DNA of 64,000 nt. It comes from Octopus vulgaris. Taxonomy: Eukaryota. The first letter of the stretch is position 1; each line of letters starts with the position of its first letter. Of this stretch, positions 35,027 through 63,933 are shown in pieces. The translations under genes and the position numbers were made by a program. A model generated the notes under the pieces. It was given only the letters and a program-made list of their open reading frames with translations, did not search any database and was not told where the DNA came from. The stretch covers positions 191,394,001-191,458,000 of the forward strand of contig OX597815.1 in the NCBI GenBank assembly GCA_951406725.2, written 5' to 3'.

Positions 35027-35299
35027 TACAGATTTTCTATAGAAATTGTAGCCAACACTGACTTTATTACAGCATTTCATATCCAAGACATCAGATGTAA
35101 ACAAACGAGATCAAGGATTAAGGGATTAGACGGATGCTGATGAAAGAGTGAAAATTCCCGAAATATGACATATATATATGCCCATTACCCATTTTTCATC
35201 TTTCATCTTCAGTCTCATTGTTTGTTTACATCTGGTGTCTCGGGTATGAAACATCGTAACAAGATCAGTGTTGGCTACAATTTCTATAGAAAATCTGTA
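35027..35299. repeat. Fold-back element with ~85-bp inverted arms (outer ~34 bp perfect)
   Basis: TACAGATTTTCTATAGAAATTGTAGCCAACACTGA / TCAGTGTTGGCTACAATTTCTATAGAAAATCTGTA; related fragments at about 13029, 35950-36650 and 57465. Confidence 0.75.
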
Positions 35300-53748: not shown

Positions 53749-56700
53749 CACATCCACACAACATATACATGCATATATTCATGTATGCGTGAGTATTTAT
53801 TTCCATGTCTTTTGCGTGAAACCATTTGGGCTTCAGCCTTGGTTTAAGCTGCTGTAAATAGTCTGTCCTGCGGTTTGAGGGCTTCAGGGTTTGAGTGTAT
53901 GTAAAGATGAGTACAATGATGCATCACTTGAAAAACAGAGAGTTGACATGAAGGGTACCTAGCCGCAGAATACTATCAAAGAGAGTCTTGTCCAATTCCT
54001 GCTGCCAGCATGAAGAAATAAAAAAAGAGGAATGGTCTTCAAAACAATGATGGGATAAGCATTACATTTTTTCTTTTTTTTTTCTTCTTCTAATTGTTGT
54101 TGTTGTTGTTGTCTGGAGTCATATTCTTCACTACGTACTTAGGATCAGACTGGATTTGAACTAGGAACTTGCATTTCTAAATTAAAGGCATTAATGCTCT
54201 GAATTTAGAAATAGACAATCCTGCTGGTTCGATTACAGGAGTAAGGCAATATTGATCTGAGATCAAACTGTTTGAAACGTAGTGTGGATCATCATTATGA
54301 TCATCATCATCATCATCATCATTATCACCATTAAATGTCCATTTTCCATGCTTGCATTAGGTGGACAGTTCTACAGGAACCGGTGAGCCAGAGGACTGTG
54401 CCATGATCCAGTGTCTGCTTTGGTACGGTTTCTACGGTTGGATGCCCTTCTTCCTAATGCCAGCCACTTTAGAGAGTGTATTGGGTGATTGGGTGCTTCT
54501 CATGTGATACTGGCACCAGTGGGGTCACCGGGTAACTTGCGAGACAAGACCCCCCACCTCGACTGAAGCAGGGGGGATAGCGTTGAAGGAGGTGGCTTTG
54601 CGCCGCGTAATGTGAAGTTGAAGTATGAAAGGGTGAAAGAAACAGGTGCGTTGCTGTAAAGGAGATACATGGCTACTTCAGTCAGAGAAGAGGGAGTTAT
54701 TAAAAAAAACAAAAAAAAAACATAATCCTTACAATGAAGTCAATAGTCTGAAAAATTATCTTAATCAACATTTCAGACATTTTAAATTTTACAACTTTTT
54801 TAGGTCTGTCTTCAATATATTGCATACACGTTGCTGTTAATTTATTATTTCAACTACAACCTAAATGATGAAAATGAAAATGAAAAAAAAAAGGGGACCA
54901 AATGCATCATAGCATTTAGTTTTGCTCATCTTAGTGGAAATCACTTTCGGATGAATTTTTTTTTTTTTCTTTTCTTTATCCATAAATGGTTGGTAATATA
55001 AGTTCCAATATTGAAATCTGCGATCAAAGCAGTCGATTTATAATCCCTCCCCTCTTTCAGTTATAAGCCCTGTCTCTATTTCAGGAAACAGTTTGAAATA
55101 TATTTTTGATTGGAAATGATTTGTGCACACATGCATTAATTTTCATCTGATTCTCAGTCTACAACTGTCCAATTCTTTATTTGATTTCATCAGATCTTTA
55201 CTGTAAACTGCCAATATATTTAAATAATAACATTTATTCTTACAAAATGGAGATAGAGAAACTTGTGCAAATGAAGTTCCCAAAACAAAATAAATTAAAT
55301 AAATGTTTTTATAACAGATTGTTGTTTTCAGTTGTGACTTTTAAATAAATAATATTAAACAAGTTTTATACTATATAGTCCTAGTTTTATGTACCATTAT
55401 AACCTTGTTGATATTGACCTTTCTCCTTATTGCTTTCGTTTCTGGTTATTCTAGTGGTGCTGTTGAATATCTACCAAAAAATATTTTCTACCGGTAGATC
55501 TGTGCATTTTTTTAAATAAAAAAAAAAACAAAAACATGTATAAAGTAAGTGATGGGTTGGTTTCCCCTTTGCGCAGCACCTACAACAAAAACACCAGCTT
55601 TTCCATATAACTCTTCTACAGCATCCACATGTATATAACACTGCAACAAAAGGAAAACAGTGCACAAACATACATTTGATAGTCACAGATGAAAATATTT
55701 GGCCAACACAGACCAAAATGCGAAAACCTGTTGAGGCAATCGAAATCGATCAAAAAATGGAAATTGTAGTTGTGATACCAGTGCCAGTGGCACATAAAAA
55801 GATCCATTCAAACGTGGCTGTTGCCAGCGCCGCCTCGACTGGCCTCCGTGCCGGTGGCACATAAAAGGCACCAACTGATCGTGGCCATTGCCAGCCTCAC
55901 CTGGTACATGTGCCAGTGGCACGTAAAAAGCACCCACTACACTCACTGAGTGGTTGGCATTAGGAAGGGCATCCAGCTGTAGAAACACTGCCAGATCAAG
56001 ATTGGAGCCTGGTGCAGCCTCCTGGCTTCCCAGACCCCGGTCAAACCGTCCAACCCATGCTAGCATGGAAAACGGACGTTAAATGATGATGATGATGATG
56101 ATGAAAGATGGTGTACAGGTGTGGCTGTGTGGTAAGTAGCTTGCTACCCAGTCCTACTGTGTGGCACCTTGGGCAAGTGTCTTCTAATATAGCCTTATGC
56201 TGACCAAAGCCTTGTGAGTGGATTTGGTAGACAGAAACTGAAAGAAGCCCATCGTATATATATCATCATCATCATCATCATTTAATGTTCGCTTTCCATG
56301 CTAGCATAGATTGGACGATTTGACTGAGGACTGGCGAACCAGATGGTTGCACCAGGCTTCAATTTTGATCTGGCAGAGTTTCTATAGCTGGATGCCCTTC
56401 CTAACGCCAACCACTCCAAGAGTGTAGTGGGTGCTTTTACGTGCCACTGGCATGTATATATATACATATATCTATATATACATGTATGTATATATACATA
56501 CAAGTATATATATACATATATGTGTCTATATACATATATGTATCTATCTATGTATATACATACATAGGTGACCAAGTCAGTAGCAAAGGAGGGTGCACTG
56601 AAAGTGTACCTGCTAGAATAAGAATAGCTTGGGCAAAGTTCAGAGACCTCTTACCTCTGCTGGTGACAAAGGGCCTCTCACTCAGAGTAAAAGGTAGACT

Positions 56701-57628
56701 GTATGATGCATGTGTACGAACAGCCATGCTATACGGCAGTGAAACATGGGCTGTGACTGCTGAGGACATGCGTAAGCTCGCAAAGAACGAAGCCAGTATG
56801 ATCCGATGGATGTCTAATGTCAGTGTGCATACTCAACAGTGTAAGTACCTTGAGAGAAAAGTTGGACCTAAGAAGCATCTGATGTAGTGTGCAAGAGAGA
56901 CAACTGTGCTGGTATGGTCATGTGGTGAGAATGGCTGTGTATATATGTATGTATATATATACACATACATATGTATATATACGTACACATATGTATTTAT
57001 ACATACATATATATATATACACATACATAAAATATATACACATATACATACACACATATATATATAAACACATACATAAAATATACACACACACACACAT
57101 ATATATGTATGTATATATATATGTATGTATATATATATATATATGTATGTAATATAATATATATACATATCTATATATATATACATATGTATATATATAT
57201 ATATACTTGTGCCGCAGAGTGGAACTTCCTATGGTCATTCATGAATGAAGGGAGTCTTTATTCTTTAATATATTTATGTAATGATTAAATCATATTATGC
57301 ACTTTATTGTATTTTATTTCGTTCATGATCCACGAAGTTCTCGTAAGAATTGTCTTGCATGAAACTGGTCTGAAGCACAAAAAAATGTTGGGGTCCTTTG
57401 CTGTACAACGTCACTGAAAAATAATAATTACAGATCTTGAAGAATTATTTGAGATTTCCTTGTATAGAAAATCTGTAGAGATGGCCTTAACATGATTCAA
57501 ATGCACTGCTAACACAGTAGGACATGGTATTGACTTCTAAAAATGTTTAATATACTTCGTAGTAAGTTATGGTTGCATAACAAAATACCACATGTCTACA
57601 AGTCATTAATATATATGTTATGGATTGG

Positions 57629-58124
57629 GTCTGCCCCTCTGGCGAATCTACATGTCATGTAATGTTATAGATTGGCCCTGCCCCTCTGGCGAATCTGCAA
57701 CATGTCATGTAATGTTATGGTTTCAGTCTGCCCCTCTGGCGAATCTGCAACATGTCATGTAATGTTATGGTTTCAGTGTGCCCCTCTGGCGAATCTGACA
57801 TGTCATGTAATGTTATGGTTTCAGTGTGCTCCTCTGGCGAATCTGACATGTCTTGTAATGTTATGGTTTCAGTGTGCCCCTCTGGCGAATCTGACATGTC
57901 ATGTAATGTTATGGTTTCAGTCTGCCCCTCTGGCGAATCTGACATGTCATGTAATGTTATGGTTTCAGTCTGCCCCTCTGGCGAATCTGACATGTCATGT
58001 AATGTTATGGTTTCAGTCTGCCCCTCTGGCGAATCTGACATGTCATGTAATGTTATGGTTTCAGTCTGCCCCTCTGGCGAATCTGACATGTCATGTAATG
58101 TTATGGTTTCAGTCTGCCCCTCTG
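57629..58124. repeat. 48-bp minisatellite, about 10.3 copies
   Basis: Unit GTCTGCCCCTCTGGCGAATCTGACATGTCATGTAATGTTATGGTTTCA; the last five copies are identical. Confidence 0.95.
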
Positions 58125-58170
58125 TAAATCGGCACAAACTTTCCGGACAACACAATATATATATATATTT

Positions 58171-58683
58171 ATAGCAGCTTACCTTTCGATTTATTTTAGA
58201 ACATGGTTGAGTCCATAAAATAGGATTTGACTACACCTCCGTTTAGAGCACAGTTTAAGCTATCTTTTCGTGGAAGAAGATTTATGTTCCTATAACCTTA
58301 GTTAATTCTGTAACCCTTTAAAATGGAAGATAAAGTTCATTTTTGACACTTGATGCTTTGGGAACCAGACAAAAATTGCTGCAGCTCGGCTGGGATGTGT
58401 TACCCCACTCTCCATATTCACCAGATATTGCTCCTTCGGATTTCCACTTATTCAGGTCTCTGCAGAATAGTCTTAATGGTAAAAATTTCAATTCCTTGGA
58501 TGACGTAAAAAGATACCTTGATGAATTAATTCTTTGCCATGAAACCACCTCAATTCTGGGAAGAGGGTATTTTCGAGTTAAAGGAAAGATGAAGATGCTT
58601 GGTTGATTAAAAATGTAATGGCAAGTATTTATTGACCTTTTTCTTTCCATTAAAAATTGGCACGAACTTTCCAGACAACCCAA
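58171..58683 (+). mobile_element. Internally deleted mariner fragment with right TIR
   Basis: MEDKVHF start fused to TRQKLLQLGWDVLPHSPYSPDIAPSDFHLFRSLQNSL; right end GCACGAACTTTCCAGACAACCCAA-TA, also present at about 58126-58157. Confidence 0.75.
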
Positions 58684-58742
58684 TATATTTCGTTTTTGGA
58701 TTTGGTTTGCAAGATTCTTTATGTGAGTTTGTGTGTTGAAGC

Positions 58743-59009
58743 ATATACTGTTGTGTCTGGTGAAAGTCATTCTCTTTTGGTACCTTGTGGTTTAATTCGC
58801 TCACCAGTGGAGTTTCCACTTATTTCTTTTTTATTTTTCTAAAATTTTTGTTGCGTCTTGCAACCTTTTCAATAGTTTTGACTCTCAAAACTATTGAAAG
58901 GGTTGCAGGGCGCAGTAGGAATTTTGGAAGAATGGGGGGGGGGAGTTTTACTGGTGAATGTGTTGAGTTGTAGGGCACCAGAAGAAAGTGACTCTCCTCA
59001 GACACAACA

Positions 59010-59015
<6 letters not shown>
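58743..59015 (+). repeat. Fold-back (~135-bp arms, 3-nt loop) with strand-biased G.T mismatches
   Basis: Centre TTTTGA-CTC-TCAAAA at 58876-58890; manual pairing gives about 26 G.T, 4 A.C and 2 other mismatches. Confidence 0.85.
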
Positions 59016-59049
<34 letters not shown>

Positions 59050-59065
59050 CGAGAGAGAGAGATGG

Positions 59066-59108
<43 letters not shown>

Positions 59109-59121
59109 ACAACTTCCGCCA

Positions 59122-60325
59122 CATTCCAGGGAGAAAAACTAGAAGTAGTTGATAGCTCCCGTTACCCAGATGACCACGTCAATAGCAGGGGAGGGTGCAC
59201 TGCAAGTGTAGCTGCTAGAATAAGAATAGCTTGGGCAAAGTTCAGAGAGTTCTTACCTCTGCTGGTGATAAAGGGCCTCCTGCTCAGAGTAAAAGGTAGA
59301 CTGTATGATGCATGTGTACGAACAGTCATGCTACATGGCAGTAAACATGGGCTGTGACTGCTGAGGACATGCATAAGCTCACAAGGAATGAAGCCAGTAT
59401 GATCCGATGGATGTGTAATGTCAGTGTGCATACTCGACAGAGTGTTAGTACTCTGAGAGAAAGGTTGGACCTAAGAAGCATTAGATGTGGTGTGCAAGAG
59501 AGACTGTGCTGGTATGGTCATGTGGCGAAGAATGGATGAGGATAGCTGTGTGAAAAAGTGCCGCACCCTAGTGGTTGAGGGAACCTGTGGAAGAGGTAGA
59601 CCCAGGAAGAACTGGGATGAGGTGGTGAAGCATGACCTTCGAACTTTGGGCCTCACTGAGGAAATGACTAGTGACCGAGACTTTTGGAAATATGCTGTGC
59701 TTGAGAAGACCCGGCAAGCCAAATGAGACCATAACCTCGCGGCCTATGCCAGGGGTGTAACCAGCCCACTTATGTGTACCTTTCCTTCATTGGACATTAA
59801 ACTCTGCTTGCGAAGACCTGTTGAGGCAAGTGAAATCAAAATCAAATTCGACAACTGGCATCCGTGCTAGTGGAGCACTAAGAGCACCGTCTGAGCGTGA
59901 TCGTTGCCAGAGCGGCTAACTGGCTTCCATGCTGGCGGCGTATAAAAAGCACCATTTGAGAGTGATCGTTACCAGCGTCGCCTTACTGGCACTTGTGCTG
60001 GTGGCACCTGAAAAACTTTCCGAGTGAGATCGTTGCCAGAGCTGCTCAACTGGCTCCTGTGCAGGTGGCACATAAAAAGCACCATTTGAGCATGGCTGCT
60101 ACTAGTACCGCCTGACTGGCCCTCGTGCCGGTGGCACGTAAAAGCACCCACTACACTCTCGGAGTGGTTGGCATTAGGAAGGGCATCCAGCTGTAGAAAC
60201 TCTGCCAGATCAGACTGGAGTCTGGTGCAGCCATCTGGTTTGCCAGTCCTCAGTCAAACCATCCAACCCATGCCAGCATAGAAAGATGTTAAACAATGAC
60301 GATGATGATGATAATGCTGATGATG
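59122..60325 (+). mobile_element. RTE-clade LINE 3' portion with ~55-bp repeated 3' UTR motifs and (GAT)n tail
   Basis: GEKLEVVDS..AARIRIAWAKFRE..LYDACVRT..GRGRPRKNWDEVVKHDL*, then GTGCCGGTGGCACGTAAAAGCACC repeats; many 3'-end-only copies across the window. Confidence 0.85.
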
Positions 60326-61429
60326 GGCAGATTGCATGATGCCTGTATTAGAACTGCAATGTTGCATAGTAATGAGATAGGGGCCTTGAATTCAGAGCAC
60401 TTAAGAAGACTGGAAAGAAATGAGGTGAGCCTGCTCTGTTTGATGAAAATGCATGAATGGCACAGTAAACAAGTGCTGAGAGAAAAACTGGGCATAAGAG
60501 GGATCAGACATAGTGTGCAAGAAAGAAGATTGTGTTGGTGTGGACCTGGATGAGGACAATTTATATAATCGTCCAACCCATGCTAGCATGGAAAGCGAAT
60601 GTTAAACGATGATGATGATATATGCTGGCATCATCATTTAAATTTATAGTTTTCCATGCATCATTGATGCACTTCCTATCACCAACCCTGACCTGTTTTC
60701 AAGCAAAATAATATTTTTCCTGTGATTGAACATATTTTCATGGGAGACTGGAGATGAAGGAGATGCTTGAAATATCCCTAGAATTTCAGAAGACACTTAC
60801 TGTAAACATTGGAGGGTACCTTGTGCTTAACAAGAGTTTTGTTAACTTGTATGGTTGAGCACATTTTGTGGCCAGAAAATGCAATATCAAATGTCCATCA
60901 AGTGGTCAGTACCATGAAACTGGGATAAACTTCTGCACATGTCAGCATTTTCTAACAATGGAATGCAAAAAAAAAAAAAACCAAAAAAAAAACAAAAAAA
61001 AAAAGGTTTCCCTGTTGAGAATAAAACAAGACATTGAGATCTACAGTAAAAATCACAATTTTTATTTTGGTATTTTTAAACAAGTATTTATGATAAACTA
61101 CACATTGCAAATACTTAAGAAATATATAATTTAATGATCTTTTTTCCATTTATATTTTTATTTGTTTTATCATGCACATGTTGCTGGGAAATTACATTTT
61201 TTAGAAATTTATACATTTGCATATTATTCCAACAATGCTTTCCCCCAACTTTTAATGATTAGATTCTTTTCATGACTGCCAACCACTGGACCCTGAAGGA
61301 CAAGTGGAAGCTATTTGTTTGTCAGGTAGGTCGAGGCATGTGAAATTATCTCCTTTTCTACATAGACAACTTTAAAGTCATCCAGCCTTAACCTTGTACC
61401 CAGTATTTTTCATAATTTATAAAAGATTA

Positions 61430-62586: not shown

Positions 62587-63214
62587 CTTAAAAAAAAAAA
62601 AAAAAAAATCTTATTTACATGAAATTATCAACATTGTCATTAATATCAATTAACAGTTTCTTGGATAAAAAAAAAATACTGTTTCAGTACTTGTGGCTGC
62701 TTTAGTTGATTTTACCCTTCCCACCAAATTTATGTGGATGGTTTGACTGAGAACTGGCAAACCGGAAAGCTGCACCAGGCTCCAATCTGATTTGGCAAGG
62801 TTTCTACAGCTGGATGCCCTTCCTAATGCCAACCACTCCAAAAGTTTGTGCTTTTACGTGCCACTGGCATGGGAGCCAGTCAGGCAGCACTATCATCAGC
62901 CATGCTTGAATGGTGTTTTTAAGTGCCAGTCAGGTGGCACTGCCATTTGCCACACTTGAACAGTGCCTTTTATGTGCCAGCCATGCGGCACTGGCATCGG
63001 CCATGTCTACTATTTCACTCGGTTCAACAGGTTACACAAGCATGGCATACTGCCCAGCAACTGAAGGGTGTTTTTAATGCTAATTATATATATATATATA
63101 TATATACAATTTAAAAATCGGATAAAATCTTTATAAGAATTTATCAAGTAGTTAGCATGAAAAACTCCATAAGAGAAAAAAATCCACCAATTTTTTCACT
63201 TAAATATATTTATT

Positions 63215-63841
63215 TATATTATATAGAGGGCATTACTATACATAAATGCCACAAGGTAGGAGGGACTCTTAAAGTCAAAACTACCAAAATAAATAAATAC
63301 ATCGTACTGAATATAACCCTCGAAGCAAGTCACTTAAAAACGTTTTTAAATGACTTGCTTTGAGAGTAGCATTTGGTATGATGTGTTTATTTATTTTGGT
63401 AGTTTTGACTTTAAGAGTCCATCCTACCTTGTGGCATTTATGTATAGTAATGCCCTCTATATAATATATATATATAAAATTTAAAGGACTGACCACTAAA
63501 AGTGGACGGTCAATATGCTAGATATAGATGTCATTCCACGAAGAATGTGTTCTCAAGAGAAAACTCAGCACAAAACCAAAGTGTAAAAATAAGCAAGACA
63601 AATGAAAATATACGAAATCAAAAACGATTACCTATGTACCGATCAGTTTCACTTGTTAATATTCACATATATGCATACGTTTTTGATTTCGTATATTTTC
63701 ATTTGTCTTGCTTATTTTTTACACTTTGGTTTTGTGCCGAGTTTTTTTCTTGAGAACACATTCTTCATGGAAAATAGCGATTTTGACGTCTATATCTAGC
63801 ATATTGACCGTCCACTTTTAGTGGTCAGTTCTTTAAATTTT
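63215..63841. repeat. Two abutting long fold-backs in (TA)n in the zinc-finger intron (63215-63468 without spacer; 63476-63841 with ~51-bp spacer)
   Basis: First is centred on AAAAAC|GTTTTT at 63341/63342; second has arms 63476-63626 and 63678-63841. Confidence 0.9.
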
Positions 63842-63933
63842 GTATGTAAAATATATTTTAATCTTCGGATTTTCTTTTAATATGCTAGGCCACTGGTTTT
63901 AATTGATTAATATCAATTTCTACCCTTATTCAA

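What the first reader, a model, noticed from the sequence alone, without database searches (positions are those of the whole stretch)
58743..59015. Fold-back with near-exclusive G.T mismatches: possible genomic fossil of an ADAR hyper-edited RNA
Seen: pairing the two arms on the + strand gives about 26 G.T pairs against 4 A.C and 2 other mismatches. The inner ~50 bp has 9 G.T and no other mismatch, and a G10 run (58934-58943) faces a T-rich stretch. G-for-A appears in both arms (left gtggt/tggag, right gcaggg/tagga). Established: neutral transitions in a DNA inverted repeat should give roughly equal G.T and A.C; ADAR deaminates A on both arms of a dsRNA hairpin; inosine is copied as G; coleoids have very extensive A-to-I editing. 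The other fold-backs checked here (3962/4923, 35027, 63215, 63476) show no comparable skew. Inference: a hairpin retroelement RNA was hyper-edited, reverse-transcribed and inserted beside (TA)n, writing RNA editing into the germline. Alternatively, G.U pairs were selected in a structured RNA.
Basis: partly seen in the sequence, partly recalled or inferred. Interest (0 to 1): 0.82.

Follow-up and report, generated by a model that had tools for sequence, protein, structure and literature searches.

The report
ADAR edits fossilised in germline retrocopies
About two dozen scattered copies of a piece of the PICK1 gene's last intron carry a hairpin in which a third of the A's read as G on both arms of the gene's own strand, likely because ADAR-edited RNA was reverse-transcribed by a LINE into the germline, leaving a heritable DNA record of RNA editing.

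Summary
The fold-back is real: 92 Watson-Crick, 32 G.T, 4 A.C and 2 other pairs. It is one copy of a palindromic repeat (H). An unedited arm motif has 1156 genome matches. The G-rich motif has 15, all in a ~4.5-5.5 kb composite ending in a LINE 3' end.

Against 18 stand-alone copies, 23 composite copies show A>G 566/1784 versus T>C 26/1854, on both arms. The unpaired tail shows 0/197, and stand-alone copies 28 versus 28. Edited A's follow A/T, rarely G/C (p=1.3e-4).

The composite's 5' part comes from the last intron of PICK1. PICK1, the LINE and the A>G changes share one strand. A second graded A>G cluster in six copies, and an independent edited H in the opposite orientation (14 A>G, 0 T>C), point to repeated events.

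Best reading (0.85): ADAR-edited intron RNA retroposed by a LINE reverse transcriptase. Still open: whether the 26 near-fixed sites come from one founder or from saturating editing. No unedited source allele was found, and live editing was not shown. Ten literature searches found no endogenous precedent; cultured avian retroviruses are the nearest case.

The parts
57205..57605 (+). Sequence from the last intron of PICK1 (gene at G000:C5:144.66-144.68 Mb, same strand); 5' end of this copy
   Evidence: Only 6 full-length matches among 40 scored; 94.6% identical to the gene intron; gene exons carry PDZ and Arfaptin domains, PDZ matches PRKCA-binding protein E=6.6e-37
57615..58124 (+). 48-bp tandem array; also present in the PICK1 intron and at the 5' end of many composite copies
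58125..58166 (-). Short inverted piece (mariner left terminal repeat plus TA) at an internal deletion that removed about 1.5 kb (Tc1 remnant, SINE piece, mariner-A) from this copy
58167..58684 (+). Mariner remnant (mariner-B); no A>G skew
   Evidence: 58334-58600 matches Mos1 transposase E=1.3e-14; against 5 outside copies one fixed difference, a C>T
58688..58742 (+). Unpaired tail of repeat H; unedited
   Evidence: A>G 0/197 over 23 copies
58743..58881 (+). Left arm of hairpin H; 7 A>G of 30 A, 0 T>C of 60 T
58885..59015 (+). Right arm of hairpin H; 20 A>G of 53 A, 0 T>C of 25 T
59011..59103 (.). (TA)n(GA)n linker between H and the LINE piece, shared by composite copies
59104..59726 (+). Decayed 3' end of the ORF of a non-LTR retrotransposon, sense strand, 5'-truncated (RTE-like by recall)
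   Evidence: translation; other family copies extend upstream and carry RVT_1, E down to 1e-31
59727..60324 (+). LINE 3' UTR ending in a (GAT)n tail; 3' end of the composite
   Evidence: 11 of 21 loci end at this tail with different flanks beyond it

Best explanation
The hairpin is one of about two dozen dispersed copies of a PICK1-intron composite whose palindrome carries sense-strand A>G changes on both arms, likely written into DNA when ADAR-edited RNA was reverse-transcribed by a LINE. Steps: (1) Shown: the composite's 5' part is PICK1 intron sequence, and gene, LINE remnant and A>G share one strand. (2) Inferred: an earlier allele of this intron (or a founder retrocopy of it) held Tc1, SINE and mariner remnants, the ~135-bp-arm palindrome H and a LINE 3' end. 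(3) Shown by folding, inferred in vivo: H forms a long duplex in the RNA. (4) Inferred from spectrum and neighbours: ADAR deaminated many A's to inosine. (5) Inferred: LINE reverse transcriptase recognised the (GAT)n-tailed 3' end, copied I as G, and inserted variably truncated cDNAs in the germline. (6) Supported, not proven: editing recurred in separate transcripts, giving graded, non-tree-like extra edits. The 26 near-fixed sites may come from one founder passage or from saturating editing. The copies are most likely inert passengers.
For: Spectrum: A>G 566/1784 vs T>C 26/1854 in 23 copies; left arm 159/659, right 407/1125; tail 0/197; stand-alone control 28/1565 vs 28/1553; window copy 27/83 vs 0/85. 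Site-level 5' neighbour: A/T 27 of 61 sites edited, C/G 2 of 31, Fisher p=1.3e-4; this matches the published ADAR preference (PMC8586724, PMC4365171, passages). Polarity is fixed by perfect stand-alone palindromes and by unedited sister composites L095 and L096, which fall outside a 96/94 branch. Tc1, mariner-B and LINE parts show no fixed A>G excess. Strand agrees with PICK1 GT-AG exons. 11 of 21 loci end at the LINE tail. Three fragments start at the exon start, within 2 nt of the donor site, or 19 nt into the intron. Recurrence: six copies carry 10-21 A>G in mariner-A vs 0-2 T>C, others 0-3; 5' T 43/68, A 46/149, G 9/82, C 0/50. Shared transversions cross that set 17 times and stay inside it once. 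34 of 66 pairs of intermediate H sites show all four gametes. L218, a non-composite H in the opposite orientation, has 14 A>G and 0 T>C in a different pattern.
Against: No locus was found with unedited H joined to the LINE piece. The assembled PICK1 intron lacks everything from the Tc1 remnant to the LINE, so the source allele is inferred. No target-site duplication or GT-AG splice loss was found in composite copies. 10 of 21 loci did not show the tail within the flank held, and several end inside or just after H. 3' G enrichment is absent in H (G 0.34, T 0.42, A 0.32, C 0.18). One clade for the mariner-A-edited copies is not rejected (p-AU 0.16), and markers are mosaic, so recombination or conversion could mimic recurrence. 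Near-fixed sites (494/518 G) fit a single founder as well as saturation. The SINE piece has 4 fixed A>G but also 6 fixed C>T, unexplained. ADAR1 did not edit L1 RNA in human cells (PMC5224506, passage).
Confidence: 0.85

Rival explanations
1. The A>G changes were made in place at the source locus (ADAR acting on the DNA strand of an RNA:DNA hybrid formed by the palindrome, or cDNA-templated conversion of the intron), and the copies merely inherited them.
For: 26 sites are near-fixed. L218 has a single-copy flank and one exon-like piece on its edited strand (unverified). L214 lies downstream of AMP-binding exons on its edited strand. Both routes are discussed as hypotheses in PMC10209271 (passages).
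Against: Graded copy-specific edits in mariner-A and at 12 intermediate H sites need repeated input after the source state. Host strand could be judged for only 3 of 5 non-composite loci, one tentatively; L217 looks composite-derived. It is still ADAR-driven, so it changes the route, not the enzyme.
Confidence: 0.07
2. G.U pairs were selected in a functional structured RNA.
For: G.T pairs keep the + strand fold stable (-170 vs -119 kcal/mol). C>T is 6.6% in composites vs 3.2% in stand-alone copies.
Against: Selection for G.U would admit C>T as freely as A>G, but A>G is 31.7% and most shared C>T are CpG sites. It predicts no 5'-neighbour bias. Copies are deleted, truncated and decaying. No Rfam match.
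Confidence: 0.03
3. Another strand-specific mutational process (error-prone reverse transcription through the hairpin, single-strand A deamination, transcription-linked A>G) produced the changes.
For: The SINE piece shows a burst of both A>G and C>T. Deletions across the hairpin base occur (L104).
Against: The changes are confined to duplex-forming segments, use the same sites in unrelated copies, and follow the ADAR neighbour rule in two separate regions. Neighbouring single-stranded parts are unskewed.
Confidence: 0.04
4. Sequencing or assembly error in a hairpin.
For: The window's bases were not confirmed with raw reads.
Against: 23 loci on many contigs and both strands share the sites, always on the composite's sense strand, while 18 stand-alone hairpins of the same assembly show 28 A>G vs 28 T>C.
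Confidence: 0.01

Closest known systems
ADAR A-to-G hyperediting in avian retroviruses (Rous-associated virus 1, Felder 1994; avian leukosis virus, Hajjar and Linial 1995; seen only as cited in review PMC8586724)
   Same: A-to-I edits in RNA become A>G in DNA through reverse transcription.
   Different: Here the template is a host intron transcript, the likely polymerase is a LINE enzyme in trans, and the products are about two dozen endogenous copies of different apparent ages in an animal assembly, not exogenous virus.
APOBEC3 DNA editing of endogenous retroelements (PMC2873906, passages; Carmi 2011 seen as a reference only)
   Same: Deaminase mismatch clusters preserved in genomic copies and polarised against unedited relatives.
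   Different: APOBEC gives G>A on the sense strand from cDNA deamination. This is A>G, limited to duplex-forming RNA, with ADAR's 5' neighbour bias.
Hyper-edited inverted-repeat RNA, e.g. Alu pairs (PMC4365171, passages)
   Same: Dense A>G in long duplexes with depleted 5' G.
   Different: Known as an RNA-versus-DNA difference; here it sits in the genome. 3' G enrichment was not seen in H. A 2016 review says a role of ADAR editing in Alu subfamily evolution had not been determined (PMC4982230, passage).
Retroprocessing of edited organellar transcripts in plants (recalled; seen only as a reference title in PMC12710240)
   Same: Edited RNA rewrites DNA through cDNA.
   Different: That is C-to-U in mitochondria replacing the gene in place; this is nuclear A-to-I in dispersed non-coding copies.
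LINE-mobilised retrocopies, transductions and chimeric retrotranscripts (recalled); octopus RTE LINEs (PMC9115989, passages)
   Same: Shared LINE 3' end with tandem-repeat tail, variable 5' ends, small inversions.
   Different: Template is intron RNA, no target-site duplications were found, and clade membership (RTE) was not tested by phylogeny.

Membership tests
ADAR hyper-editing signature | A>G far above T>C and other changes on one strand | tested here: met
   566/1784 vs 26/1854; control 28 vs 28
ADAR hyper-editing signature | Confined to long double-stranded RNA, both arms | tested here: met
   both arms edited, tail 0/197, flanking remnants unskewed; duplex partner of the mariner-A cluster not found in the 30 kb of gene region held
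ADAR hyper-editing signature | 5' neighbour U/A favoured, G depleted | tested here: met
   p=1.3e-4 in H; same trend in mariner-A
ADAR hyper-editing signature | 3' G enriched | tested here: inconclusive
   H: G 0.34 vs T 0.42, A 0.32, C 0.18; mariner-A: G 28/80, T 28/80, C 17/46, A 25/143
ADAR hyper-editing signature | Edited strand is the transcribed strand | tested here: met
   PICK1 exons and LINE ORF on the same strand as A>G
ADAR hyper-editing signature | Same sites edited in living RNA and ADAR-dependent | tested here: inconclusive
   only assembled contigs were available; fragments too short and mixed across thousands of copies
LINE-mobilised retrocopy | Common 3' end at a LINE tail, variable 5' ends | tested here: met
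   11 of 21 loci end at (GAT)n; 5' ends vary from the exon start to inside H
LINE-mobilised retrocopy | Target-site duplications | tested here: inconclusive
   none found among 11 copies; the 3' end was located by the script for only 4 of them, and the shared strings were TA repeats
LINE-mobilised retrocopy | Intron loss at GT-AG sites | tested here: not met
   15 internal gaps listed, not splice-like; not expected if the template is intron RNA
LINE-mobilised retrocopy | Partner LINE encodes reverse transcriptase | tested here: met
   RVT_1 in 3 of 3 family copies scanned
RTE clade | Reverse-transcriptase phylogeny with RTE elements | not tested
   label recalled from C-terminal motifs
APOBEC-edited retroelement | G>A clusters on the sense strand | tested here: not met
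   G>A 31/844, no higher than control 32/729
MITE / DNA transposon (parent H) | Terminal inverted repeats with fixed-length target duplication | tested here: inconclusive
   palindrome plus a one-sided 55-nt tail; flank duplications of about 9-12 bp in several of 18 copies, variable
Known structured RNA (Rfam) | Match at gathering score | tested here: not met
   0 matches in 57000-60500

The most novel reading that the evidence does not exclude
A long-lived PICK1 intron RNA, possibly the excised lariat, was repeatedly edited to near saturation by ADAR in the germline and repeatedly retroposed. Each of the ~25 copies would then be an independent ancient edited molecule, a time series of germline ADAR activity and site preference. 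Solo edited hairpins such as L218 may show that ADAR edits are also written back into host introns in place, making A-to-I editing a direct germline mutagen in this lineage.
Probability: 0.35. Interest if true: 0.9.

Novelty: new variant of a known kind. Interest (0 to 1): 0.78.

Why it matters
Whether A-to-I editing feeds back into heritable DNA is an open question. A/G polymorphism at edited sites is explained by selection by some authors (PMC7186786) and by a direct mutational route by others (PMC10209271). A review left ADAR's role in retroelement subfamily evolution undetermined (PMC4982230). This family gives a clean natural case with internal controls: over a thousand unedited arm matches, unedited sister composites and a known transcript strand. 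It implies ADAR activity and LINE reverse transcription in the same germline or early-embryo cells. It offers a simple genome-wide screen (G.T-skewed fold-backs) for more cases and warns that some 'RNA-DNA differences' in repeats can be edited retrocopies. No function is claimed for the copies.

Tried and rejected
Reads: the run search returned contigs only. Laying 2 presumed-RNA and 2 presumed-DNA runs on a stand-alone H gave more A>G plus T>C places in RNA (21, 23) than DNA (13, 13), but from few short contigs of mixed copies, with 49 rows not shown; it is not used as evidence.

Source hunt: walking upstream reached PICK1 but no intact source. C5:21.64M, C10:54.82M, C10:64.63M, C3:114.64M and C8:80.78M are fragments without H. 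The search at the LINE junction returned no unedited H-LINE join among 40 scored of 2607. L218's flank has no second copy among 40 scored of 288.

False leads: L158 and L139 skews are TA microsatellites. L219 and L220 match the edited motif by chance in another repeat. L212 and L213, with two A>G at the searched sites, are at chance level, since a control motif with two never-edited sites also found 2 copies. L214 and L215 could be short conversion tracts from composite donors; L216's pattern fits that less well; L217 is probably composite-derived.

Other negatives: splice-type deletions and target duplications were not found. An inverted mariner-A partner was not found in 30 kb around the gene. 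The AU test did not reject one clade for mariner-A-edited copies. Pfam did not recognise the window's LINE or mariner pieces directly, and the 32-residue exon had no PDB match. Earlier scan notes held nothing.

Full report
Observation. The fold-back at 58743-59015 is real. With an alignment that scores both transition senses equally there are 92 Watson-Crick pairs, 32 G.T, 4 A.C, 2 other mismatches and an 8-nt gap. The + strand folds as RNA at -170 kcal/mol, z -20; the - strand at -119. Among 318 inverted pairs in 785 kb of held DNA, the strongly skewed ones are this family plus two TA-microsatellite artefacts.

Family. A genome search gave 2642 candidates, of which 40 were scored. They fall into near-perfect stand-alone palindromes with a one-sided 55-nt tail (called H here) and G.T-rich copies with shared flanks. 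A 20-nt unedited arm motif has 1156 matches (a copy can match twice). The fully G-substituted motif has 15, all at composite loci. The samples are best-scoring hits, not random draws.

Polarity and spectrum. I used the commonest letter per column of 18 stand-alone copies as yardstick, on columns at least 75% conserved. 23 G.T-rich copies show A>G 566/1784, T>C 26/1854, C>T 54/816 and G>A 31/844. The left arm has 159/659, the right 407/1125 and the unpaired tail 0/197. Stand-alone copies show 28/1565 and 28/1553. Four unedited-like composites show 3/288 and 13/310. One composite with only the tail (L098) was left out. The window copy has 27/83 and 0/85. Of 92 A sites, 26 are G in at least 80% of copies (494/518), 12 are intermediate and 54 are low (25/1093). 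Sites preceded by A or T are edited in 27 of 61 cases, those preceded by C or G in 2 of 31 (Fisher p=1.3e-4). This is the ADAR preference described in PMC8586724 and PMC4365171 (passages). The 3' G enrichment of the latter paper is not seen in H.

The composite. The G-rich hairpin sits in a unit of about 4.5-5.5 kb: unique sequence, a 48-bp array, a Tc1-like remnant (label recalled), a SINE piece (label recalled), two mariner-type remnants, H, (TA)n(GA)n, and the sense 3' end of a LINE ending in (GAT)n. Mariner-B matches Mos1. Other copies of the LINE family carry RVT_1 in 3 of 3 scanned. 11 of 21 loci end at the tail with unrelated flanks; others end earlier or are interrupted. Fixed differences in the Tc1, mariner-B and LINE parts show no A>G excess. 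The SINE piece has 4 A>G, 0 T>C and 6 C>T, a variant private to the composite (11 of 11 matches). No target duplications or splice-type deletions were found.

Source. The unique 5' part matches only a handful of loci. One is the last intron of an intact-looking gene on G000:C5 whose GT-AG exons encode PDZ and Arfaptin domains; the PDZ exon matches PRKCA-binding protein (PICK1) at E=6.6e-37. The gene runs on the same strand as the A>G changes and the LINE. The three longest fragments start at the start of the preceding exon, within 2 nt of the donor site, and 19 nt into the intron. That suggests pre-mRNA or excised-intron templates (inference, n=3). In the assembly the intron keeps the unique part and array but lacks the rest, so the source allele is not seen. 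Two composites with unedited H, ancestral SINE letters and no LINE end (L095, L096) fall outside a 96/94 branch holding the other 17 rows. A third (L080) nests inside but has an H of another subtype, probably replaced later.

One event or many. In mariner-A, six copies carry 10-21 A>G (0-2 T>C), sharing some sites 6/6 and varying at others; remaining copies have 0-3. The neighbour bias recurs (T 43/68, A 46/149, G 9/82, C 0/50). Shared transversions cross this set 17 times, stay inside it once and lie wholly outside it 10 times. No bootstrap tree groups them, but an AU test does not reject one clade (p=0.16). Among the 12 intermediate H sites, 34 of 66 pairs show all four gametes; among nine better-sampled sites, 8 of 36 pairs do so at least twice each. 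Some of these sites create CpG, and flanking markers are mosaic too, so recombination among source alleles may contribute. Outside the composite, motif searches found L218, an H in the opposite orientation with 14 A>G and 0 T>C in its own pattern, and L214, L215 and L216 with 6-8 A>G each. These were selected for 2-3 of those changes. A control motif shows that double changes arise by chance. Repeated editing is therefore likely, while the 26 near-fixed sites fit either a founder passage or saturation.

Mechanism. I commit to ADAR editing of the intron RNA followed by LINE-mediated reverse transcription and germline insertion (0.85). Shown: spectrum, confinement to duplex segments, neighbour bias, strand, LINE-tailed ends and origin in PICK1. 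Inferred: the source allele, ADAR as the enzyme, the LINE as the polymerase and the germline stage. Rivals: in-place ADAR-driven change at the source (0.07), another strand-specific process (0.04), selection for G.U (0.03) and assembly error (0.01). A check on present-day RNA was inconclusive because only contigs were served.

Known work. Ten full-text searches found no report of an endogenous genomic family bearing ADAR edits. The library lacks most subscription journals and older scans, and I read no supplements, so absence is not proven. Nearest cases: A-to-G hyperedited avian retroviruses (as cited in PMC8586724) and APOBEC G>A editing of retroelements (PMC2873906 passages). ADAR1 did not edit L1 RNA in cultured cells (PMC5224506 passage). 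A review called ADAR's role in Alu subfamily evolution undetermined (PMC4982230 passage). PMC10209271 (passages) and PMC7186786 (listing and one passage) debate mutation versus selection for A>G at edited sites. PMC9115989 (passages) describes expressed RTE LINEs in octopus. PMC12710240 gave only a reference title on plant retroprocessing. All papers were seen as listings or passages, none whole.

Verdict. Interest 0.78.

Noticed in passing
L218:3700-4270 (G000:C5:45.915 Mb): Solo H in tail-last orientation with 14 A>G and 0 T>C on both arms, single-copy flank, and an exon-like piece 200 nt away on the edited strand; candidate for in-place rewriting or an independent edited insertion.
   Followed up: partly
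L214:2850-3160 (G000:C11:88.31 Mb): Solo H of another subtype with a 12-bp flank duplication and 8 A>G in one arm only, downstream of AMP-binding (luciferase-like) exons on the same strand.
   Followed up: partly
L217 (G000:C26:14.60 Mb): An unedited H fragment followed by an edited, composite-type H fragment and a LINE tail, inside an intron of a laminin/Ig-domain (perlecan-like, recalled) gene; may be a cDNA inserted at a homologous resident copy.
   Followed up: partly
composite SINE piece, about 950-890 nt upstream of H's tail (L071 frame): Burst of fixed changes in 60 nt (4 A>G, several C>T, one swap) in all copies except L095 and L096; the variant occurs only in composites. Unexplained.
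   Followed up: partly
L164-L165 (C5:21.64 Mb), L167-L168 (C10:54.82 Mb), L102 (C7:101.76 Mb): Retro-like fragments start at the PICK1 exon start, at the splice donor, and 19 nt into the intron; hints at lariat or pre-mRNA templates.
   Followed up: partly
L147:8184 to L148:10 (PICK1 last intron): The assembled intron has lost the Tc1-to-LINE part that its dispersed copies keep; a longer allele may survive in other individuals or species.
   Followed up: no
L104 and L078: L104 lost most of H by a deletion between short repeats at the hairpin base, one of which includes an edited site; L078 has a parent-type tract in the inner left arm, suggesting conversion among H copies.
   Followed up: no
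stand-alone H copies L022-L029, L082-L091: Parent element has a sharp tail end, a slightly variable hairpin end, 9-12 bp flank duplications in several copies and a loop that occurs in both orientations; its transposition mechanism is unidentified.
   Followed up: partly
window 56561-56951 and 60326-60620: Further fragments of the same or a related LINE family flank the composite on both sides in the same orientation.
   Followed up: no
window 35027-35299, 63202-63481, 63469-63848: Other perfect-type fold-backs without G.T skew; their families could be screened for edited subfamilies in the same way.
   Followed up: no
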